Below, one piece after another: positions 4,190 through 62,721 of a stretch of DNA of 64,000 nucleotides. Every line of letters begins with the position of its first letter. Within the stretch, counting starts at the first letter, position 1. Origin of the DNA: Cyanidioschyzon merolae (Eukaryota); NCBI GenBank assembly GCA_000091205.1, contig AP006500.2. One strand, given 5' to 3'. The notes below the pieces were generated by a model, which saw only the letters and a program-made list of their open reading frames with translations, had not been told where the DNA came from and ran no database searches. A program made the translations under genes and the position numbers.

Positions 4190-4510
4190 CCGGGCGACAC
4201 AATGCATCCATCGATGAATGCCGGGAAGTATCGTCCAATAATATTCATTATTGACGCAATTTTCGAAGCAACCCGACACAATGCATCCATCGATGAATGC
4301 CGGGAAGTATCGTCCAATAATATTCATTATTGACCCAATTTTCGAAGCAACCCGACACGATGCATCCATCGATGAATGCAAGGAAGTATCGTCCAATGAT
4401 ATTCATTATTGACCCAATTTTCGAAGCAACCCGACACGATGCATCCATCGATGAATGCCGGGAAGTATCGTCCAATAATATTCATTATTGACCCAATTTT
4501 CGAAGCAATC
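4190..4510. repeat. Tandem array of a 79-bp unit, about 4.3 copies, directly upstream of the NusG-like gene.
   Basis: The motif atgcatccatcgatgaatgc recurs at 4203, 4282, 4360 and 4439, giving period 79. Each unit holds an imperfect 18-bp palindrome gcatCcatcgatgAatgc centred on ATCGAT. Each unit also holds inverted arms caataat-attc-attattg. Confidence 0.85.
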
Positions 4511-4592
4511 CCCTGCGGGACACGTTTCCATCCAGCGCCGCCTCTGAGCGCGTCGCGGCGCTTTCTCAAGCGCTATCCCGGTCGCGTTCGCG

Positions 4593-7138: not shown

Positions 7139-7251
7139 AAACGCTGTTTACACGGCGAGATGCCGGTATGTACGCATACCAGGATAAGAAGAGACGCGTC
7201 TGTCGCGATGACTCGAGCGTGCACCCTAAAATGTTGAGCCTCTTTCCGGTG

Positions 7252-8609
7252 TCATGAGCATCGGCCGGTGCGGGCTTCTCTACGACTGCTTGGTTTTCCG
7301 CTCTCACGGATCCCTGGATCGAAAAACGCCGGTCTCTCTTTTGTTGTCAGACTCGATGTCGACTGCCCAATGATGCTGATGGCAGTGTTCAGGAAGTCGC
7401 CACAACGTCGCACACAGCTGCTGGCACGGCATGACATGGACTGACAGAAGTTTCCATCTACGCTTTGCTCGCTGAGTTCATCTTCTTTGGGTGCGGCCTC
7501 GGAGCGCATGTCGCATTCGTGACGCATTGCTGTGTGGTGAGGTGCTCCCGTCTATCCACGGGATATCGTTAGCACGCGCGCCCTCTGAGCACTGCCTTGG
7601 GGCCCGTAAACGCTCGCTTCATCGTTCGGTACCCGCAATCGACGGGCGGCCAGACGCCTCCGGTCGATGCTCACTTCCGTTTCCGCGTCACGGGGCGGGA
7701 TTCTATGATCTCGGGCCTTTTCTAGGGAACCTCGCGGACTAGTACGCTGTCTGCTGCACGCGCAAGTGCAAGCAGTCCAATTCGGTAGAGGATCTGTGGC
7801 GCACAATGTTTTCCATGATGAAAAAGATATCAAACGGAAACCAAGGCGAGAGAAGCATCCAAGAGTGATTCCGATACGTCTACAGTGCCTTTGTGCAAAG
7901 CGACGACGCAATCTGCACTCGAAATGATCGCTGCAATGACTCAAGTCCGAGTTCAAGGCCGTTTTCCATGCAAGCACAAGGGATGTATGCTGCTGGGCGC
8001 AAATCCCGTGCCAGATACCGTGATGCTGCTTTCAAATGCCGTTTCGCCAATGGCCAGAAAGACAGCAGGATTTTGCCTGTCGAACGATATCGATTCTTTG
8101 ACGTGGCAAGTTCAGTGAACGTGTAGCATCAGTGTGTAGGGCGACTCGTCAATCACGAGGCGCGAACTGCTGCTTCCACCAGTTGCCTTGAAACCAAAAG
8201 ATCGAAAACCAGAATCACATGTGATTTGATCATGGTCCATGTAAGGCAACGAGATGCTTCCTGGACGGAATGTCTGCACTGCACCAGGGTACCGCGGGGC
8301 TACGAACGCTCGTTCGTGCGGGCGCGTCTCGTCGTCTGATGTCGATCGCAATGAAGCTGTGATTTTCAGCTGCGGTTCGTCGAGTGATCCAACACGGAAA
8401 GACTGATCGAAAAATACCTTTAGAACGACGGACGCAATCGTAAGCCCCCGTTTTTCGCCGCACTTTGCCTGCCAAAGCTGTATATCTGAACGTGCTCGAC
8501 AAGGAGCACGCGGCAAGCACCGGACAAACGGCGCGCTAGTCGATGATCGTCGCGCACACTGCGGACCTTCGAGGCGGAATCCGTTGATAACGTGTACATA
8601 AATGTTCAT
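7252..8609 (-). pseudogene. Degenerate TnpB/Fanzor-like RuvC nuclease relic, copy a. It is frameshifted across three ORF segments: 8609-8112, 7977-7552 and 7527-7252.
   Basis: The antisense of the dispersed ~300 bp repeat at 7850-8125 encodes a RuvC-I-like ...ALNSDLSHCSDHF (compare GIDLG...LSDG). Downstream is a Cys cluster NFCQSMSCRASSCVRRCG that matches the CQSTACVERC cluster of the IR copies. Overall size is ~1.36 kb, about a 450 aa TnpB. It lies head-to-head 20 bp from the DNMT3-like gene start. Confidence 0.45.
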
Positions 8610-8629: not shown

Positions 8630-10906
8630 ATGGTTGAGTACAAGCCTATATCTTTCTGGACAAATCAGAGACACCATCGACAGCGACCTGCGATGGCATC
8701 CCTGTGGACGCGCGCGGCGGCGCCTCTGTCGCGCACCCAGCACACCCGCGTCCGACGGACAGCTCGCGGATGCGCTTCTGGTGCCGAACACCAGAGGCCG
8801 GTGTTCATGGCAACCACCGCAGAGGCAGCGGCGGCCTTGGCTTCAGATATAACACCCGAGGACTTTGCAGGCTATGAGTGTTTGCTGTGCCAACGCCGGG
8901 GTGCTCTCGTGGTCTGCAGCAACGCAGAGCGGTACACTTGTCGTGCTTGCGTCTGCAGGGCCTGCTTCCGACGCTGGGGCTGGTCGTGGGAGCGCTACAC
9001 AAGCGCCTCGGTTGACGTACCCTTTCTCTGTCCGAGATGTTTGGTGAGCGAGCCCATTCTAAGCTTCGAGACTGGAATGCTAGAGGAGGAGGAGGAGGAG
9101 GCGTCGCCACGCGCGTCAGAAGTTAGCGACACACCAACGTTGAGGGAGAAACTAAGCATGGTACAAGCGTTCTACGCGTGCAGCCGCAGCCCTCTTTTCC
9201 GCAGCGAGGACACGTACCGGAACGGTCGACGCCGTCCTGGGACCAAGTTCGGCACCACAGCATCCGAAACGCTCTCTGGCGTGAAGCGCTCGCCGAATCG
9301 AGTCTGCGTCTGGCGGCGGCTCGACGCTGCACCCGTCGCACGCTACACATCGGATGGGCGCGAGTTCTTCTGTAGACTCGGGGATGGGACGCATAGTCAT
9401 CATCCGCTTTTATGGTGCAGTGCATGTCCGGCAGCGTATCATGCGCCGAGTTGTCTCAGCGCCGCCGCTGCTGCTGCTGCTGCTGCTACATCAGTTACAA
9501 CGACAAGTCTGACATCGGATGAGCAGGAGCAGCAGAACGTTGCGACGACACCACGCACTGGTGTCGACGCAGACCGGCAAACATTCTGGCTCTGTCCGTT
9601 TTGCCGTCGCCAGCGTCTACCATGGTGGCAGAACAGCTCAGAATCAGCACCCGGTACCGTGCTGCAGAAACGACATCGACACCAGCGGGTGCAGCAGCGA
9701 CTGCGACAACCAGCGGCGCTGCTGGAGGCACTCGCGCGCTATTGTCGCAGAACCTGGCCGCCGCGTGTCTTCAGCGGACCCCGGTTCGTAGTGCTCTCTC
9801 TCTTTGACGGTTTGGCATCTGCGCGTCACGCGCTGGCCTTGCTGCAGATACCACCGACGCTCATCCGGTACTACGCTTCCGAGATCGATCGAGACGCACT
9901 GGCTGTGGCACAGTCGCAGTACCCGGACGTGCTTCAGCTGGGGCCAGTCGAGCACCTGGCCGCCTTTGACGACATTCCCGAGCAGATCGATCTGCTGATC
10001 GGCGGCTCACCGTGTACTTCCTTGAGCGGCCTCGGGAAGCGCAAAGGACTGTATCACGGCACATCGGCACTGTTTTTCGAGTTCCTGCGCATCAAACGCG
10101 TCATGAAACCGCGTTTTTACCTGTTCGAAAATGTAGCGTCCATGCGTTGTGCCGACAAGCGTCGCATTCACCAGCTGCTGAACGCGAGCAGACTCAACGA
10201 AGCAAGCACAAGTGCCGACCAACGAAAAAACAGTGTCCTGGTCGAGTTGGATGCAGCCCGTGTGACCGCGAGCCTGCGTCGACGCCTCTATGTGGCGAAC
10301 TTCCCGTTGCCCGCGACGGATGCCGCGCTCCCCGATTGGAACCTGCGTCTCCAAGACGTTCTAGATCGCGACGGTAGTATTGCCGAGTCGGCCAAGGCGT
10401 TCTGTATCACGACGAATAACATGCAGGGTCGTCCAGGAGATTCCCGTTTCAATGTGATTGCAATGCCGGAGCAGGGCGTGCGACGCGGAGTGCGCATCCA
10501 CGAAGCCGAAAAATGTCTCGGCTTTCCGGCAGGCTACACAGCGGTGTTGGCAAAGCGATCCGAGGGAGCAATGCCCCGACGCTGGCGACTCTTGGGGAAT
10601 GCGTTTGCACCACCGTTGATTGCGCTGCTTTTGAGGCCGCTGCTAGAGCACAGCGTGATCGGCGCGTATCTGGAGCGAGCTGCGGTGCTCCCGCACCTCG
10701 AAGCGGCCTGTCGGGAGCAACTCCGGGGTGATCGCCCGGAGGCGAACACGCTTGTGCTCGTGAAGGTTATGCTCCAGAGGCCATCGCATGCCCAGCTCAC
10801 TGGAGACGATGAGGGCACGGTGTCTTGCGAGTCGCGTATGCGCTCCGTGGCGGGCGCTCAGCGCACCAACAGCGATACCTGTCTTGTTCGGGGGAGCACG
10901 AGATAG
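8630..10906 (+). CDS. DNMT3-like DNA (cytosine-5)-methyltransferase with N-terminal Cys-rich PHD/ADD-type fingers.
   Basis: Motif I is RFVVLSLFDGLASARHAL (DNMT3A has VLSLFDGIATG). Motif IV is LLIGGSPCTSLSGLGKRKGLYHGTSALFFEF. Motif VI is FYLFENVASM. The C-terminus is EAEKCLGFPAGYTAV...RWRLLGNAFAPPLIALLL. Upstream fingers are YECLLCQRRG...CRACVCRAC...FLCPRC and FWLCPFCRRQ. It is a single intronless ORF. Confidence 0.8.
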   Translation: MVEYKPISFWTNQRHHRQRPAMASLWTRAAAPLSRTQHTRVRRTARGCASGAEHQRPVFMATTAEAAAALASDITPEDFAGYECLLCQRRGALVVCSNAERYTCRACVCRACFRRWGWSWERYTSASVDVPFLCPRCLVSEPILSFETGMLEEEEEEASPRASEVSDTPTLREKLSMVQAFYACSRSPLFRSEDTYRNGRRRPGTKFGTTASETLSGVKRSPNRVCVWRRLDAAPVARYTSDGREFFCRLGDGTHSHHPLLWCSACPAAYHAPSCLSAAAAAAAAATSVTTTSLTSDEQEQQNVATTPRTGVDADRQTFWLCPFCRRQRLPWWQNSSESAPGTVLQKRHRHQRVQQRLRQPAALLEALARYCRRTWPPRVFSGPRFVVLSLFDGLASARHALALLQIPPTLIRYYASEIDRDALAVAQSQYPDVLQLGPVEHLAAFDDIPEQIDLLIGGSPCTSLSGLGKRKGLYHGTSALFFEFLRIKRVMKPRFYLFENVASMRCADKRRIHQLLNASRLNEASTSADQRKNSVLVELDAARVTASLRRRLYVANFPLPATDAALPDWNLRLQDVLDRDGSIAESAKAFCITTNNMQGRPGDSRFNVIAMPEQGVRRGVRIHEAEKCLGFPAGYTAVLAKRSEGAMPRRWRLLGNAFAPPLIALLLRPLLEHSVIGAYLERAAVLPHLEAACREQLRGDRPEANTLVLVKVMLQRPSHAQLTGDDEGTVSCESRMRSVAGAQRTNSDTCLVRGSTR

Positions 10907-12219: not shown

Positions 12220-15200
12220 TTAACCTTTCTCGAGTAAACTCAATGTCAAGAGCACGATAAAAAGCAAGACCGCTGTGCGGTAAGTTGCCCCCAGACCAGG
12301 CCACTGTGCGAGCACGATCTGCACCAACAAGGACAACCAGAAGAGCGGCTCCGTCCAAACAGGCCAGGGTTTGGGCACCGGCTGTCGCTTCAGGAAACCG
12401 TTCTCGCCTATGACGAGCCGGGGAGAGATTCGTAAGCGTCGTAGTCGGCCCGAGGCCTCGTTGCCGTGTTGACGGGAACGTGCTACGGTCCGACTAGCGG
12501 AGGTGCGGCTCTGAAAGGCCGCCAAAACATACGCAGAGATGATACTCGAGGTCGCGTCAATCTCAATCCACTGAAAACAACGCGGATATGGCACGTCGTT
12601 CCAGCCATGGGCGAAGCTATAAACCGTCGTAACGAGCACAAGAACGTTACTCACGACTGCGGTCCATTCGATGAGTCCGTGGTCGGCCCAGGTGAGCTGC
12701 TCAGGTGGCCAGTTGCCTCCGAGGAGGCAGCTCAGCACGAAAAAGTGCCAAGTGATGTGCAAGATCCACAGCCCAATGGGCATGGACGGTTGATGCTCCA
12801 CAAGAGCAGATTCCACGACCAAGGATGCTGCGGACTGCTGCAATGCTCTCGCTCGTACCATGGCGAGATGTTGGTGCAGAATATGCCTACCGAGGCGCGG
12901 CAATAAGATAGCGTAGAGCGCCAGAAAGCCGGTATCCAGCGAGAAGAACATCTGGCTGAAGCGCTGAAGCAAACGACGACGCGAGCTACGACGCCAACGA
13001 GTTCCCAGTGAGGCACTCCGTAGACGTTGCAGAATCGCTACCCATCGTATCCCAGAGGCATCATGCTGGAGCCGAAACTGACTCAGAATTCGGATGAAAC
13101 ATTTTGCGGGATACCAGAGCGACGCCAGTGCCGAGGTATAGCGGCAGTGCAGTGCGCGTCGAAGCCATGAGCGCGGAGCTGCAGTTCGGGGCCTCCAGAG
13201 CCGCCCTGCTGAGCACGCAAGACGAAGACAACTGAGAAGCTTCCAAGTCGATCGTCGAGGCGCTCGCACAGCGGCTGACATGATCAACGCTCGCTCCGTA
13301 ACATTGCACGCTGGTGCTGGTGATATCGCTCCCGCTGGGACGAACTCGGAGGATCCAGACAGAATCTCGTGGACTGGACACGGTGCTCCATGTGCCCGAG
13401 TCTGCGCTCGTGTGCGGCTCACGCTGTGTAGGCCAGGAGACGAAGATGCATCCGCCGCTGATAATGACGACGATGACGATGACGATAAGGATATTGATGT
13501 TGATGGCGGAGCATTTGTGGCGGGAATACGCCTCCAGTGAGCATCCGCTGCGATAGGCTCCTGTGAGGCGTTGCAACTGCCGCTGCAAGCAGAGGTTCCC
13601 GGAGTCGTCACGGAGCGATGCGGGGAGCTCGAGGCAGCTGGCCTCGTGCGGTACGCTCCTGCCTCACTCGTGCTGCCTTTTGCCTCCTCCGCTTCGACAG
13701 CATCCATAGTAGGCACCGAGGCGGTAGCCGTGCCTGCAGCAGTTTCGTTCGCTGATGCAGTCTCGCTCTGGATAGCATCGGATGCAGATACCGTAGCAGG
13801 TATCGTATACCGAGTATCGCTTCTAGCATTGTGGTTCGTTGTTGCACTCTCGTGCTTAGCACTGGGTAGCTGGGTAGTCGCATTGGTGCACTGAGTGGAG
13901 ACTGTCTCCCCTGATTGTCCGTTTTCGCTACGAACGAGACGTTGCGAGACTGTCGGCTGCACCGCACTGGTAGCGCCTTGAAGCATCAACGGGACCTGCG
14001 GCGAGTTCTCTGGGGCTACGCTGTGCGCTGAGCTGCGCTCGACACCAGGTGACGATAAGACAGCAGCAGCAGCAGCAGCAGCGCTACGATGGACTGCTGG
14101 CTGCCTTAACCCCGCGGGCGACGCATTTGCAGGTGCAACACTCGGTTTTGGCAGACATGTCTGGTCCCAGAAAGGTCTCGTTGAGACAGGGCAGCGTGAT
14201 ACTCGCTCCGCGTCACTGATACGATCGCTTGACGCTGAGACCGGCGTCAGTATCGTCTGTCTAGAGACTTGTGTCGTAGCAATAGGTTTGACGAGTGACT
14301 CCCGCGAGCTTCTCTGAGTAAACGTACCCAAGGAGACGTTCTGGAGGGACGACCATGGACCCGGTGTGCAGGCGCTGAAGCGTTCTCTTTCATCCACCGG
14401 TATGCAAGGCGTGTCTGTGACAATGCTAAGCGGAAGTTGGAGGCTTGGTGTATTTTGCTCTGCGGCGGCATGGGAGCTGCGTATTCTTGGCGACAAAGCA
14501 GCAAGACTCGCGCTGTTTGATGCTTGCGAGTGATCCTTGCCCAAAGCAGGGATCCTGTCCACACCCTGACCGTGCATCATTGGCGGCAGCAGTGTTGCCA
14601 CATCCGCAAGATGCAATCGGTCCCGGGACTCGCTTTCACCAGTGCGAAAGAGCGCCCCTCGTACGTCGCTGTCGTCAGTTGAAGGCAACTCTGGGACTTT
14701 CCGTCGTCGCCATCCCCAGTCCTCTACCTGCATCGTCGCTGCATCGTTGCCGTGGCTCCAGTGACACTTGAAGGGCGCCGAGGCCGCCAAGGGAGTGCTC
14801 ATCAGAGATGCCCCAAGGCAGTCAACCGGAGCAGACGTGCTCGGCGACGGAGATGGATTGTCCAGAGTCTGCATTTGCTCCTCCTGTTGCTGCCGTTGAT
14901 GTTGTTGTTGTTGCTTCCAAATCGGGGAGAGACGCTGTTGAAGCGTCGGCAACAGGCTCGAAAATTCCAATTCCGAGCGATTCTCCGGATAATTTGTGAG
15001 CCACCACACGAGATATTTGTAAGCATCCTCCTCATCTGCCGGATGGAAAAATCGACAACGACTTTCACCACGGTAGCAGTTCGGCCAGAAGCGACACAGA
15101 CCGCGAGCTTTCTTCTTTGCCAATCCAGCCTGTGCTTTCTCGGATATCGATGTCGAGCTCGCTGCGGACGTCGTAGGCACGAAAGGGGTTCCGGTTTCCG

Positions 15201-16287
15201 ACGGCAGCGAACTGTTCGTGTGCCGCAAAGCTTGGTCTGCAGGTCGCGGCTCACGGCTCAAGCCTGCTCTGCGAGTTCCACTCGGTCGGCTGGAGAAGGG
15301 TCCAGCACGATGCCTAGACGACGACTCAGGTCCGTGATTTCCTTCACCAGGTTCAGTGCGTTCCTGACGCAAGTGACGCTGTGTGCTTGAAGGCAAGCTG
15401 GGTATGTCCCGCCCGAACGCATATCGCGGAGATGGCGACACTGCTCGATCGTAATGCCAACCCCGATCAAGCAGGCTCTCACTTACGCGCTCCATATCCT
15501 CGGTATGAGACGTCAAGTTGGGACTGTGCTGCCTGTTGGTAACGCTGGCTGGCGGCAGGACCACGTCCTCCGGTTCCAGCAAGTCTCGAATCATCGCGAC
15601 CATCAGGGAACTGCAACCGAGACTGATTTCGATATCCTCAGGTTCCTGGTCATGATCAGGATTATCTCTCAGTGATGCTTGTGCCGCAGATGCAACTGCC
15701 GGTGCTTGGAAGGTTGTCTTCGCGGACCCGGATTGCAAGCATGTCTCATGCCTGACGCTCGGCGGTAAGTTCGGGAAACGAGCGGGGAGGTCGCTTACAC
15801 TGGCCCCTCGATGCTCGGATGTGTGCAACGATACATACTCAGTGGCTTCAAAGGTCCCAAGTCCAGTCTTCGTCGCCGGACGGCCAACCCAGGCGGGGGA
15901 AGGCTGTTGCCGCGTCCCTTGGAGGCTCACTGGCGAAACCGGTGCACTTGCAGGAATGCGCTGATCGAACTGAGGTTCAGAACTCCAGTGAGGAGTTTCC
16001 CACGAAAATCTGCCAGACGCAGCTTCGGCCAGCAATGGGGGGCTGCTCGCGTCCCCGGGCGACAAGCCGCCACTGATGTGCCGCGCCTGTTCAACGTCCG
16101 CCCGCTCCGCACGCTGCGAACTCTGCTTGGTGCGTGAACCCTTAGAGCCCAAAGAAGGGAGGGCGAAACTTCCCGTCCGTGTACCCTCTCCGGGTGATGT
16201 CGCCATATCAGTCTTCAGGCGGGATGAAGCTTTGCTGCGCAAACCAGAGAAGCCATGTCCCTGTGCAGCATCGAGCGCCAACACCAT
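12220..16287 (-). CDS. Large low-complexity protein of 1355 aa. It has a CCCH (C3H1) zinc finger and a C-terminal multi-pass hydrophobic domain.
   Basis: The ORF is far too long to be chance. The C3H1 finger is CRFWPNCYRGESRCRFFHP. The C-terminal ~350 aa carries TM-like segments such as LFWLSLLVQIVLAQW, AVLLFIVLLTLSLL and IGLWILHITWHFFVLSCLLGG. It holds (GCA)n and (GTT)n microsatellites. Overlapping minor ORFs are treated as alternate frames. Confidence 0.55.
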   Translation of the reverse strand: MVLALDAAQGHGFSGLRSKASSRLKTDMATSPGEGTRTGSFALPSLGSKGSRTKQSSQRAERADVEQARHISGGLSPGDASSPPLLAEAASGRFSWETPHWSSEPQFDQRIPASAPVSPVSLQGTRQQPSPAWVGRPATKTGLGTFEATEYVSLHTSEHRGASVSDLPARFPNLPPSVRHETCLQSGSAKTTFQAPAVASAAQASLRDNPDHDQEPEDIEISLGCSSLMVAMIRDLLEPEDVVLPPASVTNRQHSPNLTSHTEDMERVSESLLDRGWHYDRAVSPSPRYAFGRDIPSLPSSTQRHLRQERTEPGEGNHGPESSSRHRAGPFSSRPSGTRRAGLSREPRPADQALRHTNSSLPSETGTPFVPTTSAASSTSISEKAQAGLAKKKARGLCRFWPNCYRGESRCRFFHPADEEDAYKYLVWWLTNYPENRSELEFSSLLPTLQQRLSPIWKQQQQHQRQQQEEQMQTLDNPSPSPSTSAPVDCLGASLMSTPLAASAPFKCHWSHGNDAATMQVEDWGWRRRKVPELPSTDDSDVRGALFRTGESESRDRLHLADVATLLPPMMHGQGVDRIPALGKDHSQASNSASLAALSPRIRSSHAAAEQNTPSLQLPLSIVTDTPCIPVDERERFSACTPGPWSSLQNVSLGTFTQRSSRESLVKPIATTQVSRQTILTPVSASSDRISDAERVSRCPVSTRPFWDQTCLPKPSVAPANASPAGLRQPAVHRSAAAAAAAVLSSPGVERSSAHSVAPENSPQVPLMLQGATSAVQPTVSQRLVRSENGQSGETVSTQCTNATTQLPSAKHESATTNHNARSDTRYTIPATVSASDAIQSETASANETAAGTATASVPTMDAVEAEEAKGSTSEAGAYRTRPAASSSPHRSVTTPGTSACSGSCNASQEPIAADAHWRRIPATNAPPSTSISLSSSSSSSLSAADASSSPGLHSVSRTRAQTRAHGAPCPVHEILSGSSEFVPAGAISPAPACNVTERALIMSAAVRAPRRSTWKLLSCLRLACSAGRLWRPRTAAPRSWLRRALHCRYTSALASLWYPAKCFIRILSQFRLQHDASGIRWVAILQRLRSASLGTRWRRSSRRRLLQRFSQMFFSLDTGFLALYAILLPRLGRHILHQHLAMVRARALQQSAASLVVESALVEHQPSMPIGLWILHITWHFFVLSCLLGGNWPPEQLTWADHGLIEWTAVVSNVLVLVTTVYSFAHGWNDVPYPRCFQWIEIDATSSIISAYVLAAFQSRTSASRTVARSRQHGNEASGRLRRLRISPRLVIGENGFLKRQPVPKPWPVWTEPLFWLSLLVQIVLAQWPGLGATYRTAVLLFIVLLTLSLLEKG

Positions 16288-29043: not shown

Positions 29044-29220
29044 GTGCTCGGCACGGACCTGAGAGCCGCAACGTTCCCCGTGCATAAAAGCAAAACACGC
29101 GCCGGCGTGTGGAATGATGCCGATGATCGTGACTTGTTTTTGCCAAGACACGGAAATGATGATACGCTTGGTTGATCACGCGCTGTCAGCTTACGTGAGC
29201 AGCATCTACTCGGGCGTCAG

Positions 29221-30610
29221 ATGAAAATGGAACACTGAAGCTGTGGCTCCATTCGGGTCTTTCAATTTTCCCGAGCTTTTTTACGTGTACAGCCTCGACA
29301 TGCGAAAAGCAGGTGCAAGTGCTGCCGGATTCACGCGTAATTTTTGGATCCGCGGTCGGCTTTTCGCAGAGGAGCCTTTCACGCTGTGCCGCTGGACGCT
29401 TTTACGTCATCTTCATCAGGATGATTCGCGACACCCCCGAGCTCGGATTCGTCAAATAACCGATATCGTAATCGAAGTTATAGAAACGAGCTGCCACTGT
29501 TCTTGAATCCTTTTCTTACGTGTACCAGAATCGAATCACGCATTCTACGAGTGTTGGATCCTTGTGTTCCCGGGCAACTCGAGGCGTATCCATTGGCACC
29601 GCACACTTGACGACGCAAAAAATTGTCGACGTCGAGCTTTGACGACTTGTTTACAAGCGCATGCCGAAAACCTCGTGGAGCTGCCGACGTCGCATAATCG
29701 TCTCCGGTCTAAAGATGAAGCTTCATTTCCTGCAGGTCATCGACGAAGCCGGTCGCGAATGCACCATCACCATGCCTTCGACGGGATATGCGCGCAGGAG
29801 TTCCCGTCTCTCCTAGCTCTATAAGAAATGGTCTTGGATATGGACATGAGTCATTACAGCGATCTGTCTCTATGGAGCGCGCATCTCCGCTTTGCACGAA
29901 GCGAGCATATTCGGTTCGATACTTTTCGACGTACTCTGGAGCCTCGATTCCCTCTCCGATACCTGTTTCATCACAGGCAACAACAAGGTCCTAAAATCCT
30001 CTATTCGTTAGAATAGCATGCACTTGCAAGTGCAGCGGACAACGTACTCGCCGAGCGTATCGCCCAGATACAGCTCCTGGTCTTCGAGTGCAGCACTGGG
30101 CCAGGAACCGAAGCACAGGATCGTTGGAAGCTTTTTCGTTTCCTGCCAGTCAACGGCATGTGTCGAGCGATGCAGCGAGCGTTCACGCGTCACAGGGCGG
30201 CGCTCAGCGGACGAAGTCTTGTGATGGACGTATGGGAGCACCTGATGACACTCAAGTGTAAACGTCGCGGATCGAGAGCTACCGATGTATACAAGAAAGA
30301 TGCAAATCGTTACCGAATCGTAGATCACAGCTTCCATCTGTGCACCAAATGCGTCGGTAAGAGCTGCAAAACGACGTAACCGAGACTCGGGGGCAGCCAT
30401 AAACATCCTTCGACTGCTGGCAACGGACCTGAAGAGACAAGAAAGGCCGGCGTATGTAAAATCCGGAGACAAACAAGAACGAGGATCGGGAAGCAGCATG
30501 AGAGAGAGCCCGCAAAGGCTTGTGCCAATAACAGTGGGAACAGTTCCAGAATTCATTCGTATACGCCCGAGTTCCCTCCATGAGCCTCCTTTATTTCATT
30601 CTGATACGAG
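29221..30610 (+). mobile_element. IR-A. A 1.39 kb element carrying a frameshifted TnpB/Fanzor-like relic in plus orientation, here called copy b. It is ~98% identical to the inverted copy at 52368-53756.
   Basis: Both copies have identical ORF-track peptides: 29243..29506 equals 53470..53733, and 29564..29824 equals 53152..53412. The ORF 30008..30556(-) is near-identical to 52420..52968(+), differing at a few residues. The internal relic has a RuvC-I-like IRNGLGYGHESLQRSVSMERASP. After the RuvC-II region it has VMDVWEHLMTLKCKRRGS (compare ILDAGW...YKA..G). Its zinc finger SFHLCTKCVGKS aligns with copy e's NFHLCMKYVHNS. Where copy e has RDENAAINI, this copy has decayed to RLGGSHKHP. Identity stops at 29221/53756 and 30610/52368. 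Confidence 0.55.
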
Positions 30611-30949
30611 TGCAATGACGCTACCCCGGACGGTATTGGGACAGTTGGGACGTAGGGCAGGGCGCTTCGTTGCCACCCGCCGAACGCTGCCTCAGTGAAG
30701 AACGCGAGTGTGTCCGTTGTTGCATGTCTGGGGCCTGGGGCACGCTTGCGATGCGCACAAACTGCAATGCTCTAGCCGCCGGGCACTTGGGTCCACCACC
30801 GGCACGACCCCGGTCATCCTGGAGGTGCACCAACTAGGCAGCCCAGTGGCGTGCAGGAACAGAACGCGCTTCGCAAAGATCGACGCGGGACCACGTGTGC
30901 GAAGCTTACAGAGATGCCGCTAGGTTTCATCTAAAAGATCACGTAAAGC

Positions 30950-33789: not shown

Positions 33790-33810
33790 ATCACCACCAC
33801 CACCACCACC

Positions 33811-33843
<33 letters not shown>

Positions 33844-44352: not shown

Positions 44353-45968
44353 CAAGCACATAAAAGCAGCTTGCAGCGCTGTCGTGCGGACGCTGGACAT
44401 GGCGCAGCAGCGTCACTTGGGAGTTCTGGACGTGCTTCGGAGACAGTTGACCGCGGCAGTGCCGGTTTCCAAGAACAGAGGGCGAAACCCCGGGACTTGG
44501 GTCGTTTCCGACGCCTTGCTGTTGTTCTTGTTCTTGTTGTTGTTGTTGCTGCTGCTAGATCCATGTCGGAATAGAATAGAACCGGTCCGCTTTGTTCACA
44601 CGGGCATACACGCTGGAATTTGAGCATGTTCTCATGTTCATGAATATGAGGTTTTACGAGCCTCTTATGCGACTGCGTCGCTCTCGCCTCTCGTGTCCTT
44701 GTCTTTGAATACGCGTATCTGTCCTTGACCTCCAGCTCTGTTGCCGGCAGTCGAAAGATCATGACAGCAGCGGTAAAGACTGGGTGACGTCGTTTCCAGC
44801 CGTCGTCGACGCATGTCATGCAAAGGCGCAAGTTGCGATCTACGCTTCGCTCGCTACCGTTAAATTCTTCGCTTTCAGCCTCTGTATGCCCGTCGTAGCA
44901 GTGAAACTCTGCTATGGGTCAGGTGTTCTCATATGAATGCCACGCGTCGTCGGTCTCCTTCAAGGGTCGCCCCCTTGCACGTGAACGCCTGCTTCAGCGC
45001 TCGGCACATGCGCGTGACGCGTGCGCGTGTATGTCCTCGATGCCTCTCTCCGTTTTCGAGCTCGTTGCAGCACCCTGTGATCACTGGCTTCCTCTAGTCG
45101 AATTAAGCAGCGAGTGTTCTGTTTGCTGGGTGGGGAAGCGTATGCCGCTCAATTCTACCAGGGATTTGTGAACAGCGTCGCGTTCCGCAAAGAAACAAAT
45201 ACCAGAAGAAAAATTCTTGCTCGAGAACATGTCGAAAAATCTTGATCTGTTTGCGATTGCTGCGTGCAAAAACGGCGACGCTCTCTCTTTTGAAACCGAT
45301 TGCTCGGATGACTTGAGTCCGAGTCCAAGGGCCTTTACCATGCAAGCAGAAGGGACCGGAGCCGCTGGGAGCAAAGCCGTGACCGGCATCATGCTAATAT
45401 GGAATGCGGTTTCTTTGGTGGCGGGAGGGAGTGGCGGCTTTGCTTTTCGAACGGAATCGATTCTTTGACGTGACAAGTTCCGTAAACTTTCGACATGAGC
45501 TTGAGAAAAAGTCGTCTAGAGACGACGTCGAGTATCTTCTTCGCTTTCTTTCCCGCGGCGCAACTTGCTGGGCCAATGAATTGCCTCGACGTCGAGAAAT
45601 CGAAAACTTGAAAACGCATGCTTTGAGCATACTAAACGGAATGAAAAGGGAATAGGATAGGCTTGTAAGGATGACCGGATGATGATATTGGTTACTTTAC
45701 GAACCATGGTTCCATTGCGTCGCGAATCACCTCGATAACGATGACATGATGAATTCTGGATGCCAAGATTCCGAAGCTTTACTCGGAAGCACAACCAAGA
45801 ATCCAGAAACGATATATGAATCCAAACGGCGTTATTTCTCCAGATTGAACCACATGGCTGCACAAAACTGCGAAAAAAATAGATATACGGGAACAATGCG
45901 TGTACTTTCGTGTTCCATTCATTTCTGATACGGGTGTAGAGGTATGCAGCCTCGGAGACGCTCGACAC
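44353..45968 (-). pseudogene. Degenerate TnpB/Fanzor-like relic, copy c. It abuts the Pumilio stop codon and ends ~60 bp before DR2.
   Basis: The antisense of the dispersed repeat at 45200-45520 gives a RuvC-I-like VKALGLGLKSSEQSVSKERASPF, which is protein-level similar to the IR copies' NGLGYGHESLQRSVSMERASP. ORF 44349..44831(-) begins MRLCMTCVDDGWKRR, a DAGW-like post-RuvC-II motif. ORF 45516..45968(-) is the possible N-terminal part. It is heavily decayed. Confidence 0.4.
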
Positions 45969-46029: not shown

Positions 46030-46084
46030 TGCATGTCAATGTACGGTCAGGTATGTCGAATCATGGATCACCACCACCACCACC

Positions 46085-51834: not shown

Positions 51835-52367
51835 AGTCAGAACACGTCCACGGCGCCGCCGGTGTCAATCGCGAGAGCGTAGTTGATTCAAGACGCTTTT
51901 CAGGAGAAAAAAAGCTCACCAAAGTGCTCACGGAGCGTCTGCCGTCACACGCTCGGGTACTCACCAACGAGCGCACGTGTTCTGGTTTGGGAGGTTTCAG
52001 GTGCCCGAGGCAGCAAACACAGGCTCCCTTTGTCCCGTCTCGATGCGCCAGCAACAGTGACGTAGACCAGCGGTCGTCCCTGTTGGACCGATCTTCGTTT
52101 CAAACGATTCGTTTGGAGCACCGTCTCCTCCAAAAGCGCTTCGTATGCGCTTGCCAGCTGCAACGGTAGCGGCAGCGTCGGCCTCGTGTACGCAGGGCAC
52201 GGGACGGCCTTGGTCAAGCAGCTGGGCATGAAATTTGTCTAAACTGGATATACCTGGACTTGGCGGACGCGAGTAGAGGGTTGCGCTTTGGAGGTGGTGC
52301 TCAGTGCGATTCCGTTGGAAGCACGTACCAGTCTCGACGAGCTGGCGTATGGGAGCGTCTCTAGACT

Positions 52368-53756
52368 GGTATAAGAATGAAATAAAGGAGGCTCATGCAG
52401 GGAACTCGGGCGTATACGAATGAATTCTGGAACTGTTCCCACTGTTATTGGCACAAGCCTTTGCGGGCTCTCTCTCATGCTGCTTCCCGATCCTCGTTCT
52501 TGTTTGTCTCCGGATTTTACATACGCCGGCCTTTCTTGTCTCTTCAGGTCCGTTGCCAGCAGTCGAAGGATGTTTATGGCTGCCCCCGAGTCTCGGTTAC
52601 GTCGTTTTGCAGCTCTTACCGACGCATTTGGTGCACAGATGGAAGCTGTGATCTACGATTCGGTAACGATTTGCATCTTTCTTGTATACATCGGTAGCTC
52701 TCGATCCGCGACGTTTACACTTGAGTGTCATCAGGTGCTCCCATACGTCCATCACAAGACTTCGTCCGCTGAGCGCCGCCCTGTGACGCGTGAACGCTCG
52801 CTGCATCGCTCGATACATGCCGTTGACTGGCAAGAAACGAAAAAGCTTCCAACGATCCTGTGCTTCGGTTCCTGGCCCAGTGCTGCACTCGAAGACCAGG
52901 AGCTGTATCTGGGCGATACGCGCGGCGAGTACGCTGTCCGCTGCACTTGCAAGTGCATGCTATTCTAACGAATAGAGGATTTTAGGACCTTGTTGTTGCC
53001 TGTGATGAAACAGGTATCGGAGAGGGAATCGAGGCTCCGGAGTACGTCGAAAAGTATCGAACCGAATATGCTCGCTTCGTGCAAAGCGGAGATGCGCGCT
53101 CCATAGAGACAGATCGCTGTAATGACTCATGTCCATATCCAAGACCATTTCTTATAGAGCTAGGAGAGACGGGAACTCCTGCGCGCATATCCCGTCGAAG
53201 GCATGGTGATGGTGCATTCGCGACCGGCTTCGTCGATGACCTGCAGGAAATGAAGCTTCATCTTTAGACCGGAGACGATTATGCGACGTCGGCAGCTCCA
53301 CGAGGTTTTCGGCATGCGCTTGTAAACAAGTCGTCAAAGCTCGACGTCGACAATTTTTTGCGTCGTCAAGTGTGCGGTGCCAATGGATACGCCTCGAGTT
53401 GCCCGTGAACACAAGGATCCAACACTCGTAGAATGCGTGATTCGATTCTGGTACACGTAAGAAAAGGATTCAAGAACAGTGGCAGCTCGTTTCTATAACT
53501 TCGATGACGATATCGGTTATTTGACGAATCCGAGCTCGGGGATGTCGCGAATCATCCTGATGAAGATGACGTAAAAGCGTCCAGCGGCACAGCGTGAAAG
53601 GCTCCTCTGCGAAAAGCCGACCGCGGATCCAAAAATTACGCGTGAATCCGGCAGCACTTGCACCTGCTTTTCGCATGTCGAGGCTGTACACGTAAAAAAG
53701 CTCGGGAAAATTGAAAGACCCGAATGGAGCCACAGCTTCAGTGTTCCATTTTCATC
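52368..53756 (-). mobile_element. IR-B, the inverted near-identical copy of IR-A, carrying TnpB/Fanzor-like relic copy d in minus orientation.
   Basis: It is the reverse complement of 29221-30610 with a few substitutions. The internal dispersed-repeat segment at 53040-53270 is homologous to 7850-8125, 45200-45520 and 61741-62070. Its left edge is ~530 bp from the YqaJ gene start. Confidence 0.55.
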
Positions 53757-54818
53757 TGGTACGTTTCTGGGGCAGCGGAGACCCTGTTCCTCATTGGTGA
53801 CAGAGCTTGCCCATTTTATGAGTGCTGACTCAATGCACTGTTGCAGTACCATAAAACATAACCAACGCAACAGCTTTTCCACATGATTTTACTTGTTTTT
53901 GCATCAAGCCTCGACAAAGGCACGGCCGTAGACGGCAAATGTGTCTTCATCCGTTACGTGCATCAGTACGGCCTGCCATGAACCATAATCCGGATCGAGT
54001 TCAGCGACTCGACGCGAAAGCTACAAGATGGTGGACAGGTCTTGCACACCGCCGCAACGTGCAACTAGCGGAGGCGATAGTAGCGAAGACGCTCACCAGC
54101 GCTTCACCGGACAGCGGTCCAGTGCGACGTTGATGATAGTCTGAGATTCACCGCCATGTTAAGGGGCACACGTACACCCGCGCAGTTTCGTTTGGCGTTC
54201 TGCTCCAAACAGCGTCACGAAGCCCGGGAGGACGCAACGCGAGACCCAGCTACGACTGCGCTTGCCGGCGCTAGTGCCGGCGTTGCGGTGCACGAATCAT
54301 GCATTGCTCATCAACAAACTGGTCGCTGTCACGCTCCATGACGCTTTGAGGGCACCATGAAATCTTCAACAAAAGTTTTGAACAGGAGTCTGCGCTGCCG
54401 CACGTGCACCGAGCGCACGTTCGCAGTCACAGAACGTGCAACGGAACCGTTGACGGTGCTATGGCTCGCTTCGGTCATGCTTTCTATGCCGCCGAGACTC
54501 CCACGTCGATACCGATGCCGGACAACGACTGTGACCAGGGAGGATACTTTGCGAGACGCGAACTATCTTTACTGAGGACTGCATACAGCCTGAGTCATCA
54601 CGACTCATCGCCGGTAACGTCTACAGGCACGACTGGAACTGCAGCGCCCAGCCTAGAACCGCGCATCTCTGTCCGTCATGCTGTCGAGGGATGTCCCGAA
54701 TCCATCCTCTGGCATTCATCAAATTCCAGGTGCAGTCCATTGCCTAGTGGACCTGATGCATGAGCGGCTCATCGTCTAATGACGTTGGAGATGAACAGCT
54801 CGCATCGGCAATCGGTGC

Positions 54819-61055: not shown

Positions 61056-61740
61056 GCGCTGTTCGTGTTTTTACCACACCAAACGAGCGCACAGTCCCGT
61101 TCGTCAAGCGCCCGCCGGGGCTCCGCCAGTAGCCACTCTGTTTGGTGGTCGCGGTAACGAAGCGTCCGTGCTGTGTCCTTGACAAGACCTCCGTTCGGTA
61201 TCGCCAATAACAGAACGTTCTAAACCCTGGTGCTGGTATGTATGTGTGTTGGTGTGTGTGTGTGTGTGTTTGGAGCGTCTGCGCAACGCCAGAGCAGAAC
61301 GCGCTGGAAGCGCTGCCTGCGCGAAACGCGATGCCCACAATACCACACGTATCCGACGCAAGCGGAAACCCAAACTACTCGAGCTATGCCTGCATTTCGA
61401 TTTCCTTTCGAATGTTTTTTAGAAGAACTGTCTGGACGTTTCATGTGAAGCGATGAAGGCTTACGGATTCAGAAGTAGTTTTAGAACTGTCGATCTTCTT
61501 TTCAGAGTGACCCTTTCGAATCTTTGCTGTTGGAACCCTTGGTGTCACCGGAATCAAGATGATTCGCGAAGCACTCGACCACAGAGTTGGGAAATAATCG
61601 GGATCATCATCTAGTTCATAGGTAAAGGCCTCTGGTCTTCTCCTTTCCTTACGTATAGCATGCCGAACCCGCGCATGGTACTCGTGTTCGATCTCTCCGT
61701 TTCAAGGCAGGTCGTAGGTGCAGCGATTCGAGCCGCTGGA

Positions 61741-62721
61741 TTGACGAGGAAAATACTGGACGTCGTCGAATGAAGACTTGTACACAAGCTCATGGCGCAA
61801 GTTCACTGAACTTGTCATGAAAATGATGGATTTCATGTGAGAGACAAATTCTGCTTTCTTTGCGGTCCTCGATATGTCGGCATTCGACAACAGAAAGAGA
61901 GCTCGCACAGGATGTATGCGGCCAGAGGCACCTGTCTCTTCTGTTTGCATGGAAAGGGGTTCTTGGGTTCGGACTTTGATGATCGCAGCTTTCGCTTCGA
62001 TTTGCGTATGCATCAGCGCTTTGCATGGAGCGAGCGTAACCGGACCGACACTTCTCGACGTGGTCCCTGGTCTGCACTTTCCATCCGGTAATTGGCTCAT
62101 CATTTGACAACATCGCGCTCCATAATAATCCTCTGTCGAATGAGACAACTTGCACTTTCATGTGTGGCGGACGCAGCACTCGTCAGCGGGATCGTTCATT
62201 GTAAGCTCGTGATCGTGGCGTACCGCACAGGGCGCGGAAACGAAGATGCGTATCAAGCGGAGCCTTCTGAACCCGTCAAGCGCATCCATTGAGCAATAAA
62301 GCACCGCAGGAGGATGTCCGGAGAAGGATTCGTGGCGGACATGCCGCCATACTTGACCACGGCCAAGTGTCATCGCTGCAAAGTGTACACCTATTCTGTA
62401 TAAAAAAATGAAAATGTCACGTTAAGAGTGTATTACAACTTCCACCTGTGTATGAAATACGTCCACAATAGCCGTCCGTTGCGAAATCGAGACGAGAACG
62501 CTGCGATCAACATCCTCCCACGACTGACATCGCAGCCCGAAGGTCAGAAGGGACCGGTGGATGTTTCGAGCCAGAGATGCGAGATAGGAGAAGGAAACAG
62601 TCGCAGAATCCTTCTCCGACTGTCCCCTATTGATGGTAGCTGGGAGAGACCCAAACCTCAGCATGTTCGCCCGAGGTCGCTGACAAGAGGATCTCTCCAT
62701 GCGATTCCAACAACGGTGTAG
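61741..62721 (+). pseudogene. TnpB/Fanzor-like RuvC nuclease relic, copy e. It is the best preserved of the family, with RuvC-I to RuvC-III in one frame broken by in-frame stops.
   Basis: Reading frame 1 mod 3 gives ...GFLGSDFDDRSF (RuvC-I-like), then ...SIIILCRMRQLALSCVADAAL (RuvC-II and DAGW-like region). Next comes GFVADMPPYLTTAKCHRCKVYTYSV*KNENVTLRVYYNFHLCMKYVHNSRPLRNRDENAAINILPRL. This matches the TnpB consensus V.V.P.YTS.C..CG...F.C..CG..DRD.NAA.NIL. Stops fall at 62089, 62290 and 62401. The 62401 stop is TAA where the IR copies have TAC (Tyr). Confidence 0.6.

What the first reader, a model, noticed from the sequence alone, without database searches (positions are those of the whole stretch)
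8630..10906. DNMT3-type de novo cytosine methyltransferase with PHD/ADD fingers, intronless, immediately head-to-head with a TnpB relic
The catalytic motifs follow DNMT3A/B closely: VLSLFDG, GGSPCTSLS, FLFENV and the C-terminal LLGNAFAPP. The protein has an ADD/PHD-like Cys-rich N-terminus. DNMT3-family enzymes are patchily distributed outside animals and plants, so their presence in a GC-rich intron-poor protist is noteworthy.

The gene's start is only ~20 bp from the 5' end of TnpB relic copy a. That raises the question of whether the relic contributes promoter sequence, or whether 5mC silencing of the element impinges on the methyltransferase gene itself.
Basis: partly seen in the sequence, partly recalled or inferred. 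Interest (0 to 1): 0.5.

Follow-up and report, generated by a model that had tools for sequence, protein, structure and literature searches.

The report
Known red-alga DNMT3 methyltransferase gene
The ORF is the already annotated and published DNMT3-type DNA cytosine methyltransferase gene of the red alga Cyanidioschyzon merolae 10D, so the finding is real but ordinary, and the neighbouring "TnpB relic" is a decayed repeat whose identity is only weakly supported.

Summary
The 758-aa ORF at 8630-10906 (+) is real. It is 100% identical to XP_005538347.1/BAM82311.1, "probable DNA (cytosine-5)-methyltransferase 3" of Cyanidioschyzon merolae 10D.

- **Catalytic domain (res 385-674):** it carries all the C5-methyltransferase motifs. 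It aligns end to end with solved DNMT3A/3B (E about 1e-26). In my tree it groups with animal DNMT3 with moderate support.
- **N-terminus:** res 248-326 are a true PHD finger with a long inserted loop. Res 83-137 are a nine-cysteine module that resembles only the PHD half of the DNMT3/ATRX ADD domain (hhalign probability 44-51%, inconclusive). There is no GATA-like finger and no PWWP.
- **Prior publication:** the DNMT3 assignment, a PHD hit and a "vertebrate-DNMT3-like organisation" are all in print. So are two further facts: bisulfite data show no nuclear 5mC above background in ordinary C. merolae 10D cultures, which the 2026 life-cycle paper implies are haploid, and the gene is expressed mainly in diploid cells.
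- **Upstream repeat:** it is copy a of a five-copy family, about 60% identical pairwise. It ends 0.1-0.35 kb from the ATG, not 20 bp. It matches no TnpB HMM and is not the published C. merolae Fanzor element CMe-1A. Its consensus does carry a TnpB-like zinc ribbon plus the motif RDLNAAINIL.

Novelty: already known.

The parts
8630..10906 (+). Complete single-exon CDS (including stop) of the C. merolae 10D DNMT3 gene, 758 aa as annotated
   Evidence: ORF; 758/758 identity to P0060 = XP_005538347.1/BAM82311.1; source name 'probable DNA (cytosine-5)-methyltransferase 3'.
8630..8806 (+). First 59 codons, not conserved. Possibly 5' leader rather than coding; the alternative start is M60 at 8807.
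   Evidence: orthologue alignment has no conservation before residue ~75; 4 of 8 nonsynonymous differences against environmental strains fall in codons 5-46. JGI gene calls start at the equivalent of M60.
8876..9040 (+). Cys-rich module 1 (res 83-137; nine Cys). It resembles the PHD half of the DNMT3/ATRX ADD domain; no GATA-like finger precedes it.
   Evidence: the Cys positions are shared by all four orthologues that cover this region (P0003 lacks it); hhalign against the animal DNMT3 ADD gives probability 44.5-50.8%, E 2e-4, and 0 of 200 column shuffles reach the score; against generic PHD the probability is 7.6%. Pfam gives only a weak FYVE_2 hit and no ADD.
9140..9220 (+). Conserved helical linker (LREKLSMVQAFYxC...D..R), function unknown
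   Evidence: invariant L175, A180, F181, Y182, C184, D194, R197; predicted as a helix, but in low-confidence models.
9371..9607 (+). PHD finger (res 248-326, C4HC3 type) split by a ~45-residue low-complexity loop that includes a poly-Ala run
   Evidence: the N-terminal profile hits 20 PHD-finger proteins among its 22 weak matches; hhalign against PHD gives probability 97.9%, E 3.6e-13; with the loop removed, Pfam PHD gives E 2.7e-4 (C. merolae) and 1.2e-7, 32 bits, above the cut-off (Cyanidium). Hoguin et al. Supplementary Data 4 lists PF00628 at 247-279.
9782..10651 (+). C5 cytosine methyltransferase domain (res 385-674), motifs I-X in canonical order. Motifs: FDG (392-394), E418, PC with catalytic Cys462 (nt 10013-10015), ENV 500-502, RRR 550-552, ITTNN target-recognition loop 593-597, GN 656-657.
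   Evidence: PF00145, TIGR00675; collinear alignment to DNMT3A residues across the whole domain, E ~1e-26; motif residues invariant in the four aligned Cyanidioschyzon, Cyanidiococcus and Cyanidium-type sequences.
7199..8520 (-). If it is coding, the reading direction is on the minus strand, head-to-head with DNMT3.
   Evidence: ~60% identity to copies b-e, clear over 7199-8282 and fading by ~8520; consensus motifs map to a at ~8036 (AIDET), ~7828 (FIMENIA) and ~7401 (RDLNAAINIL); no Pfam hit in any of the three minus-strand frames of copy a.
29218..30625 (+). Copy b of the same family, in the opposite orientation to copy a and 99% identical to copy d
   Evidence: (I1)
44555..45936 (-). Copy c of the same family (same orientation as a)
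52351..53764 (-). Copy d of the same family (same orientation as a)
   Evidence: no Pfam hit in six frames.
61344..62721 (+). Copy e of the same family (opposite orientation to a)

Best explanation
This is the single-copy, intact DNMT3-family gene of Cyanidioschyzon merolae 10D, and according to the literature the only predicted DNA methyltransferase in that genome.

Shown here. The C-terminal 290 residues form a canonical, non-permuted C5 methyltransferase domain with every catalytic motif and a DNMT3-type short target-recognition loop. It is preceded by a genuine PHD finger and by a second cross-brace-like Cys module that resembles the PHD half of the ADD domain.

Inferred mechanism. The enzyme is a de novo DNA cytosine-5 methyltransferase. 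Its zinc-finger modules tether or gate it on chromatin, by analogy with the reading of histone H3 tails by ADD and PHD domains. It acts mainly in the diploid phase of the life cycle. That would explain why bisulfite data from ordinary 10D cultures show no nuclear 5mC.

The upstream repeat is an old, non-functional transposon relic that happens to lie in the 2.6-kb intergenic region. Nothing suggests a functional link to the gene.
For: - Identity to XP_005538347.1.
- PF00145 at E 2e-21.
- Full-length collinear alignment to DNMT3A/3B/3C catalytic domains at E 1e-26 to 1e-24. Other families score far lower: DRM2 2e-8, HhaI/HaeIII ~1e-7, DNMT1 3e-4.
- Motif residues are invariant across the four aligned Cyanidioschyzon, Cyanidiococcus and Cyanidium-type sequences.
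- NJ tree rooted with M.HhaI: red-algal plus animal DNMT3 form a clade in 382/500 bootstraps, and red algae plus bacterial relatives in 7/500.
- Against 99%-identical environmental strains, only 4 nonsynonymous changes fall in residues 60-758, and 8 synonymous changes fall in the whole ORF. This is compatible with constraint, but I did not split the synonymous changes by region.
- Conserved synteny with Cyanidiococcus: NusG/SAP gene, DNMT3, 1274-aa gene, RFC1.
- PHD finger.
- Literature: placed as DNMT3 (PMC9998398). [quoted passage not shown] 2017). [quoted passage not shown]
Against: - Re-analysis of C. merolae bisulfite data (PRJNA201680) found nuclear 5mC no higher than organelle background (bioRxiv 10.1101/2022.10.24.513474). 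There is thus no direct evidence that the enzyme methylates DNA in vivo.
- No maintenance methyltransferase is predicted.
- The ADD assignment of module 1 is below 51% hhalign probability, and Pfam sees no ADD or PWWP.
- Both AlphaFold runs failed (pLDDT 34-36), so no structural confirmation of the N-terminus was possible.
- My tree lacks DNMT5, DNMT6 and DRM sequences, and its support is only moderate.
- About 120 bacterial methyltransferases score higher against the catalytic profile than animal DNMT3s do.
Confidence: 0.6

Rival explanations
1. The gene is a retained but functionally redirected or idle methyltransferase. It either has a non-DNA substrate (as DNMT2 has tRNA) or has no activity in the life cycle, so C. 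merolae truly lacks genomic 5mC at all stages.
For: Nuclear 5mC is not above organelle background in published bisulfite data. In C. merolae H3K27me3 marks about half of the annotated transposable elements, and PRC2 loss derepresses more of them than genes. No maintenance DNMT is predicted.
Against: All DNA-methyltransferase motifs, the DNMT3-type DNA-contacting loop (ITTNN) and the PHD finger are conserved across three genera. Substitutions are few. Expression is diploid-biased, whereas the bisulfite data come from ordinary 10D cultures, which I take to be haploid on the strength of the 2026 life-cycle paper.
Confidence: 0.25
2. The catalytic domain is not a DNMT3 orthologue. It would be a separately acquired bacterial, mobile-element type methyltransferase that fused to eukaryotic zinc fingers in the red-algal lineage.
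For: With the cyanidiophyte catalytic profile, more than 100 short (270-400 aa) prokaryotic or metagenomic methyltransferases score 127-159 bits, against 90-125 bits for animal DNMT3. Mean identity in trimmed columns is about 41% to these and about 40% to animal DNMT3. Two of them that I examined lie beside integrases or resolvases in bacterial contigs. Hoguin et al. note that red-algal DNMT3s 'diverge from other DNMT3s'.
Against: NJ bootstraps favour red algae plus animal DNMT3 (382/500) over red algae plus bacterial (7/500). Animal DNMT3s align as one collinear stretch over profile positions 8-294, while the best-scoring stretch of the top bacterial hits covers only about positions 10-225, so their C-terminal third aligns separately or not at all. 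Module 1 aligns to the DNMT3 ADD PHD finger better than to generic PHD.
Confidence: 0.12
3. The upstream repeat functionally matters for the gene. It would supply the promoter, or couple silencing of the element to DNMT3 expression.
For: Copy a lies 0.1-0.35 kb upstream of the annotated ATG in divergent orientation. The arrangement is kept in 99%-identical environmental strains.
Against: The Cyanidiococcus orthologue has the same flanking genes but no detectable copy of the repeat in its 1.45-kb upstream intergenic region, and diploid-biased expression is reported for that species too. The environmental strains are too close to be informative. No transcript-start data are available here.
Confidence: 0.08

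Closest known systems
Animal DNMT3A/DNMT3B (de novo DNA cytosine-5 methyltransferases)
   Same: Non-permuted C5-MTase domain with motifs I-X. About 35% identity over the whole ~285-residue domain. The same GGSPC..RKGLY.GT..LFFEF catalytic-loop region and the same short target-recognition loop (ITTRS in DNMT3A, ITTNN here). Zinc-finger reader module(s) lie N-terminal to the catalytic domain, and module 1 aligns to the PHD half of ADD.
   Different: No PWWP and no GATA-like finger of ADD. Instead there is an additional canonical PHD finger with a long inserted loop. Motif X is the bacterial-like GNAFAPP rather than GRSWSVP. No 5mC has been detected in ordinary 10D cultures, and no partner DNMT1 is predicted.
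Cyanidiophyte DNMT3 orthologues (Cyanidiococcus yangmingshanensis KAK4529597/KAF6004679; Cyanidium caldarium KAK4537055)
   Same: Same architecture from residue ~75 onward (module 1, helix, PHD, MTase) at 60% and 45% identity. Same gene neighbourhood in Cyanidiococcus.
   Different: C. merolae has a poly-Ala/Thr-rich expansion in the PHD loop, a non-conserved 59-74 residue leader, and the transposon relic upstream.
Galdieria sulphuraria DNMT3 (Gasu_42790-type, P0075)
   Same: Catalytic domain 42% identical and sister to the Cyanidioschyzon/Cyanidium group in the NJ tree (341/500 bootstraps).
   Different: The N-terminal profile of the C. merolae protein found no Galdieria protein, so the two zinc-finger modules appear restricted to the Cyanidioschyzon/Cyanidiococcus/Cyanidium group. 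Galdieria has three paralogues expressed in both ploidy phases.
Short bacterial 'DNMT3-like' C5 methyltransferases of integrative mobile elements (e.g. P0080, P0088, P0187)
   Same: Closest non-eukaryotic relatives of the catalytic domain, at 30-42% identity, with the same VLSLFDG...YYASEID...LIGGSPCQ pattern.
   Different: Stand-alone ~300-aa proteins in bacterial contigs next to integrases or resolvases. Many have different or expanded target-recognition regions. They fall outside the eukaryotic DNMT3 clade in my tree.
Fanzor1 element CMe-1A of C. merolae (Bao & Jurka 2013), for the upstream repeat
   Same: The five-copy consensus has CxxC-x24-CxxC-x9-RDLNAAINIL, aligning to CMe-1 residues 614-691 (NRDFNAAINIRR) at E 3e-4. 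Both are old, decayed, multi-copy elements.
   Different: No DNA similarity to the 3169-bp CMe-1A consensus beyond 29 nt. No TnpB HMM hit. Weak IS630/DDE_3-like signal upstream of the motif. True CMe-1A relics occur elsewhere in the window (26.6-27.2 kb and 39.7-40.2 kb).

Membership tests
DNMT3 (eukaryotic de novo C5 DNA methyltransferases) | C5-MTase domain with motifs I-X in canonical, non-permuted order and an intact catalytic PC, ENV and RxR | tested here: met
   PF00145 at E 2e-21. Collinear alignment to DNMT3A over query residues 387-674. Motif residues invariant in orthologues.
DNMT3 (eukaryotic de novo C5 DNA methyltransferases) | Catalytic domain most similar to DNMT3A/B among characterised enzymes, including the short DNMT3-type target-recognition region | tested here: met
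   PDB search: DNMT3A/3B/3C at E 1e-26 to 5e-24. DRM2 2e-8, HhaI/HaeIII ~1e-7, DNMT1 3e-4. No chain named DNMT5 is among the 60 listed of 64 matches at E<=0.1.
DNMT3 (eukaryotic de novo C5 DNA methyltransferases) | Phylogenetic grouping with DNMT3 rather than with bacterial relatives | tested here: met
   NJ, 194 columns, M.HhaI outgroup: red algae plus animal DNMT3 in 382/500 bootstraps, red algae plus bacterial in 7/500. Support is moderate and the method is distance-based.
DNMT3 (eukaryotic de novo C5 DNA methyltransferases) | Separation from the DNMT6, DNMT5 and DRM clades | not tested
   No DNMT6, DNMT5 or DRM sequences could be obtained with the tools. Published phylogeny (PMC9998398, Supplementary Data 1) lists XP_005538347 as DNMT3, distinct from DNMT6.
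DNMT3 (eukaryotic de novo C5 DNA methyltransferases) | PWWP domain (animal DNMT3A/B architecture) | tested here: not met
   No PF00855 hit at E<=1. The N-terminal profile finds no PWWP proteins. PWWP is also absent from some accepted DNMT3s, so this is not disqualifying.
DNMT3 (eukaryotic de novo C5 DNA methyltransferases) | ADD domain (GATA-like finger + atypical PHD + helix) | tested here: inconclusive
   Module 1 aligns to the PHD part of the animal DNMT3 ADD at hhalign probability 44.5-50.8%, E 2e-4, with 0/200 shuffles reaching the score. There is no GATA-like finger and no PF17980/PF21255 hit. Structure prediction failed.
DNMT3 (eukaryotic de novo C5 DNA methyltransferases) | De novo 5mC deposition on genomic DNA | not testable with these tools
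   The literature reports no nuclear 5mC above background in bisulfite data from ordinary C. merolae 10D cultures. The gene is diploid-biased in expression. No diploid methylome turned up in the papers I read.
PHD finger (PF00628) | C4HC3 cross-brace signature and profile match | tested here: met
   Res 248-326: C-x(2-n)-C/H...C-x2-C-x4-H-x2-C...C-x2-C. hhalign probability 97.9%, E 3.6e-13. 20 of 22 weak representative hits are PHD proteins. With the loop deleted, Pfam PHD gives 32 bits (Cyanidium) and 21.4 bits (C. merolae) against a cut-off of 24.
TnpB / Fanzor (for the upstream repeat) | Profile-level match to TnpB or Fanzor families (PF07282, PF01385, NCBIfam TnpB models) | tested here: not met
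   No hit at E<=10 in copy a, copy d or the five-copy consensus. No homologue among 5.8 billion proteins. No TnpB hit by tblastn in plasmids.
TnpB / Fanzor (for the upstream repeat) | C-terminal zinc ribbon followed by the RuvC-III motif D-x-N-A-A-x-N-I | tested here: inconclusive
   Present only in the reconstructed consensus (CHRC-x24-CMTC-x9-RDLNAAINIL). It aligns to CMe-1 residues 614-691 at 28% identity, E 3e-4, in a 1.5-kb search space. The motif is eroded in copy a itself.
TnpB / Fanzor (for the upstream repeat) | Membership of the described C. merolae Fanzor1 element CMe-1A | tested here: not met
   blastn of the 3169-bp CMe-1A consensus finds relics at 16.7-17.2, 26.6-27.2, 39.7-40.2 and 41.1-41.4 kb, but nothing at 7-8.6 kb.

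The most novel reading that the evidence does not exclude
Hoguin et al. (2023) state that microalgal DNMT3s lack chromatin-associated domains. Contrary to that, the sole DNA methyltransferase of the Cyanidioschyzon/Cyanidiococcus/Cyanidium group may carry a two-finger chromatin-reading module: an ADD-type PHD plus a canonical PHD. It may also deposit 5mC only transiently in the diploid phase, without any maintenance enzyme. That would make it a minimal, life-cycle-gated de novo methylation system in a 16-Mb genome otherwise silenced by H3K27me3.
Probability: 0.25. Interest if true: 0.5.

Novelty: already known. Interest (0 to 1): 0.15.

Why it matters
As a discovery it adds little. The gene is in RefSeq under this very name, has been placed in DNMT phylogenies, and its expression pattern was reported in 2026.

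The open biological question is why a genome with no detectable 5mC in ordinary cultures and no maintenance methyltransferase keeps an intact, conserved DNMT3 with reader fingers. That question is already recognised. It is now directly testable, because C. merolae is genetically tractable and its diploid phase can be obtained.

The modest additions here are three. The PHD finger is real, although it is interrupted by a long loop. A second finger resembles the ADD PHD half. The N-terminal module is confined to the Cyanidioschyzon/Cyanidium group and is absent from Galdieria.

Tried and rejected
1. AlphaFold2 on residues 72-345 (5-sequence alignment) and on the full protein (6 sequences) gave mean pLDDT 35.8 and 33.6. 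The models were unusable, so no fold search was run.
2. PDB sequence searches with module 1 and module 2 alone gave nothing significant. Module 2's weak hits were nearly all PHD fingers.
3. TnpB tests on the upstream repeat all failed to find TnpB:
   - Pfam on the three minus-strand frames of copy a, on all six frames of copy d, and on the three minus-strand frames of the consensus.
   - NCBIfam.
   - The 5.8-billion-protein search with a stitched consensus peptide: 539 candidates, none at E<=10.
   - tblastn against plasmids.
   The only profile signals were weak DDE_3 (E 0.0015) and IS630 (E 0.013).
4. I considered that copy a might be a CMe-1A relic and rejected it by blastn and tblastn with the published consensus and protein.
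5. I looked for the repeat upstream of the Cyanidiococcus orthologue and found none.
6. Hoguin et al.'s supplementary files were checked as a source of DNMT6 sequences for a fuller tree. The sheet I read (Supplementary Data 1) holds identifiers only.
7. The first bootstrap attempt with Biopython timed out and was redone with a numpy NJ.
8. Exact look-up of the 758-aa protein in the contig index returned nothing, so 99%-identical environmental versions were used instead.
Full report
**What is at the coordinates.** The window holds an uninterrupted ORF at 8630..10906 (+) of 758 aa. Its translation is 758/758 identical to P0060. The source records name P0060 XP_005538347.1/BAM82311.1, 'probable DNA (cytosine-5)-methyltransferase 3 [Cyanidioschyzon merolae strain 10D]', on a 1,253,087-bp contig. 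The window is therefore C. merolae 10D nuclear DNA, and the gene is a single exon, as annotated. The fourth is FYLFENV in the sequence, not FLFENV.

**Catalytic domain.**
- Pfam PF00145 matches at E 2e-21, and TIGR00675 at E 6e-18, which is below that model's curated cut-off.
- Against all PDB chains the best matches are DNMT3A, DNMT3B and DNMT3C catalytic domains (E 8e-27 to 5e-24). They align collinearly with residues 387-674.
- That alignment includes the catalytic loop (GGSPCTSLSGLGKRKGLYHGTSALFFEF against [29 protein letters not shown]). It also includes the short target-recognition loop (AFCITTNN against VRTITTRS).
- Other families score far lower: DRM2 2e-8, HhaI/HaeIII about 1e-7, DNMT1 3e-4.
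- FDG, E418, PC (Cys462), ENV, RRR and GN are invariant in the cyanidiophyte sequences aligned.

**Relatives and phylogeny.**
- Full-length orthologues are Cyanidiococcus (60%), an environmental relative (59%) and Cyanidium caldarium (45%). The next full-length hits are animal DNMT3s carrying PWWP and ADD.
- A profile of the catalytic domain alone finds Galdieria DNMT3 (42% identity). It then finds more than 100 short prokaryotic or metagenomic methyltransferases scoring 127-159 bits, above animal DNMT3s at 90-125 bits.
- Two of these that I examined sit next to integrases or resolvases in bacterial contigs.
- I built a neighbour-joining tree on 194 trimmed columns. M.HhaI was the outgroup, and its sequence was verified against PDB 10mh.
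- Red algae plus animal DNMT3 form a clade in 382/500 bootstraps. Red algae plus the bacterial group do so in 7/500.
- I could not obtain DNMT5, DNMT6 or DRM sequences. For those I rely on Hoguin et al. 2023 (PMC9998398), who list this exact accession as DNMT3 and note that red-algal DNMT3s group with dinoflagellate and Goniomonas ones and 'diverge from other DNMT3s'.

**N-terminus.** Conservation among orthologues starts at about residue 75.

*Module 2 (res 248-326)* has a C4HC3 pattern interrupted by a loop of about 45 residues. Four lines of evidence show it is a PHD finger:
- A profile of the N-terminal region searched against 1.84 billion representatives found only the Cyanidiococcus and Cyanidium clusters strongly. 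It also gave 22 weak hits (E 2e-10 to 9e-4), nearly all to profile positions within about 125-255, and 20 of them are PF00628 PHD-finger proteins.
- hhalign against those PHD fingers gives probability 97.9%, E 3.6e-13.
- With the loop removed, Pfam PHD matches end to end, at 32 bits for Cyanidium and 21.4 bits for C. merolae against a cut-off of 24.
- Hoguin et al.'s Supplementary Data 4 already lists PF00628 at 247-279 for this accession, although their text says microalgal DNMT3s lack chromatin domains.

*Module 1 (res 83-137, nine Cys)* is less clear:
- It aligns to the PHD half of the animal DNMT3 ADD domain over 60-64 columns, with probability 44.5-50.8% and E 2e-4.
- None of 200 column shuffles reached the observed score of 27.4. 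The shuffles averaged 12.1, with a maximum of 25.4.
- It aligns poorly to generic PHD (probability 7.6%).
- There is no GATA-like finger, no Pfam ADD hit and no PWWP.

So 'PHD' is confirmed and 'ADD' remains unproven. Both AlphaFold runs failed (pLDDT 36 and 34), so no fold comparison was made. A review (PMC9861306) already cites Ma et al. [quoted passage not shown]

**Function.**
- Hisanaga et al. (bioRxiv 10.1101/2022.10.24.513474) re-analysed published C. merolae bisulfite data. They found nuclear 5mC no higher than the chloroplast and mitochondrial background, and they showed that PRC2/H3K27me3 silences transposons.
- A 2026 Plant Cell paper (PMC13353863) states that Dnmt3 is the only predicted DNA methyltransferase. 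[quoted passage not shown]
- The intact motifs support a functional enzyme. The substitution pattern against 99%-identical environmental strains is compatible with that: only four nonsynonymous changes fall in residues 60-758, against eight synonymous changes in the whole ORF.
- The most economical reading is a de novo DNA methyltransferase that acts in the diploid phase. That step is inference, not shown.

**The neighbour.**
- The 2.6-kb region between an upstream NusG/SAP-type gene (ending near 6000) and the ATG contains copy a of a five-copy family. The copies lie at a 7199-8520, b 29218-30625, c 44555-45936, d 52351-53764 and e 61344-62721. Pairwise identity is about 60%, except that b and d are 99% identical inverted copies.
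- Similarity of copy a to the others is clear up to 8282 and is lost by about 8520. The element therefore ends 110-350 bp from the ATG. The '20 bp' refers to the start of a 165-aa minus-strand ORF, 8112..8609, whose last ~90 bp lie beyond the repeat.
- No frame of copy a, of copy d or of the family consensus matches a TnpB model. A stitched consensus peptide finds nothing among 5.8 billion proteins or in plasmids.
- Bao & Jurka 2013 (PMC3627910) describe one Fanzor1 family in C. merolae, CMe-1A, with about 150 decayed copies. I took their protein and DNA consensus from the supplementary files.
- True CMe-1A relics are present at 16.7-17.2, 26.6-27.2, 39.7-40.2 and 41.1-41.4 kb (tblastn E 4e-12 and 9e-11). 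None is at 7-8.6 kb.
- The a-e consensus does carry, on the minus strand, CHRC-x24-CMTC-x9-RDLNAAINIL. This aligns to CMe-1 residues 614-691 (NRDFNAAINIRR) at E 3e-4 in a small search space.
- Upstream of that motif there is a weak IS630/DDE_3-like stretch: Pfam E 0.0015, NCBIfam E 0.013, and a 166-aa collinear alignment to the Pythium PUl-1 mariner transposase at E 0.1.
- A plausible but unproven reading is an internally deleted, mariner-type element that once carried a Fanzor. In that case the orientation is head-to-head with DNMT3.
- The Cyanidiococcus orthologue keeps the same flanking genes but has no trace of the repeat. Nothing suggests that the repeat matters for the gene.

**Verdict.** The DNMT3 call is right and PHD is right. 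ADD and TnpB are at best partly supported, and the 20-bp adjacency is not. Everything essential is already annotated and published, so novelty is 'already known' and interest is low. The one open and testable question is whether 5mC appears in the diploid phase.

Noticed in passing
window 26624-27168 (-) and 39708-40160 (+); also 16747-17203 and 41148-41421: Genuine relics of the published Fanzor1 element CMe-1A. Two are internally deleted copies joining consensus positions ~793-1037 to ~2809-3082; they retain the Fanzor C-terminus (tblastn E 4e-12 and 9e-11) and correspond to inverted repeat I2. Two more are fragments of the 5' non-coding part.
   Followed up: partly
window 7199-8520, 29218-30625, 44555-45936, 52351-53764, 61344-62721: The five-copy family is distinct from CMe-1A. 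Its consensus combines a weak IS630/DDE_3-like stretch with a TnpB-like zinc ribbon plus RDLNAAINIL about 105 aa downstream. This suggests an internally deleted, mariner-type Fanzor carrier that I did not find described for C. merolae in the papers I read.
   Followed up: partly
window 33751-36747 vs 46040-48651: Segmental duplication about 12 kb apart (blocks 96-99% identical). It contains 78-bp satellite arrays (34095-35174 and 46306-47073) and a (CAC/CAT)n His-codon run (about 33790-33850 and 46070-46130).
   Followed up: no
window 29218-30625 and 52351-53758: Two copies of the repeat family form a 1408-bp, 99% identical inverted pair 21.7 kb apart. This implies a recent inverted duplication, or gene conversion between old elements that otherwise differ by ~40%.
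   Followed up: no
window 21107-21908 and 4116-4589: Further tandem arrays: units of about 92 bp (8 copies, 60-86% identical) in a stretch with low GC (0.50) and strongly negative GC skew, and 79-bp units (5 copies).
   Followed up: no
window 8630-8806: The first 59 codons of the annotated DNMT3 CDS are not conserved in Cyanidiococcus or Cyanidium. They hold 4 of the 8 nonsynonymous differences against 99%-identical hot-spring metagenome strains. The annotated start may be too far upstream (M60 at 8807 is the alternative).
   Followed up: partly
loci L005 (5001-5888) and L006 (6001-6903): The closest non-eukaryotic relatives of the DNMT3 catalytic domain are ~300-aa bacterial methyltransferases. 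They sit in islands with tyrosine integrases, a resolvase, HTH regulators and a HEPN/ApeA protein. JGI annotation labels some members of this family 'DNMT3A'.
   Followed up: partly
window 12220-16287 (-): The downstream neighbour is a 1355-aa low-complexity protein. Its counterparts at the same position in Cyanidiococcus (1274 aa) and in the environmental C. merolae-like contigs have no Pfam domain on record, and an RFC1 gene follows them.
   Followed up: no
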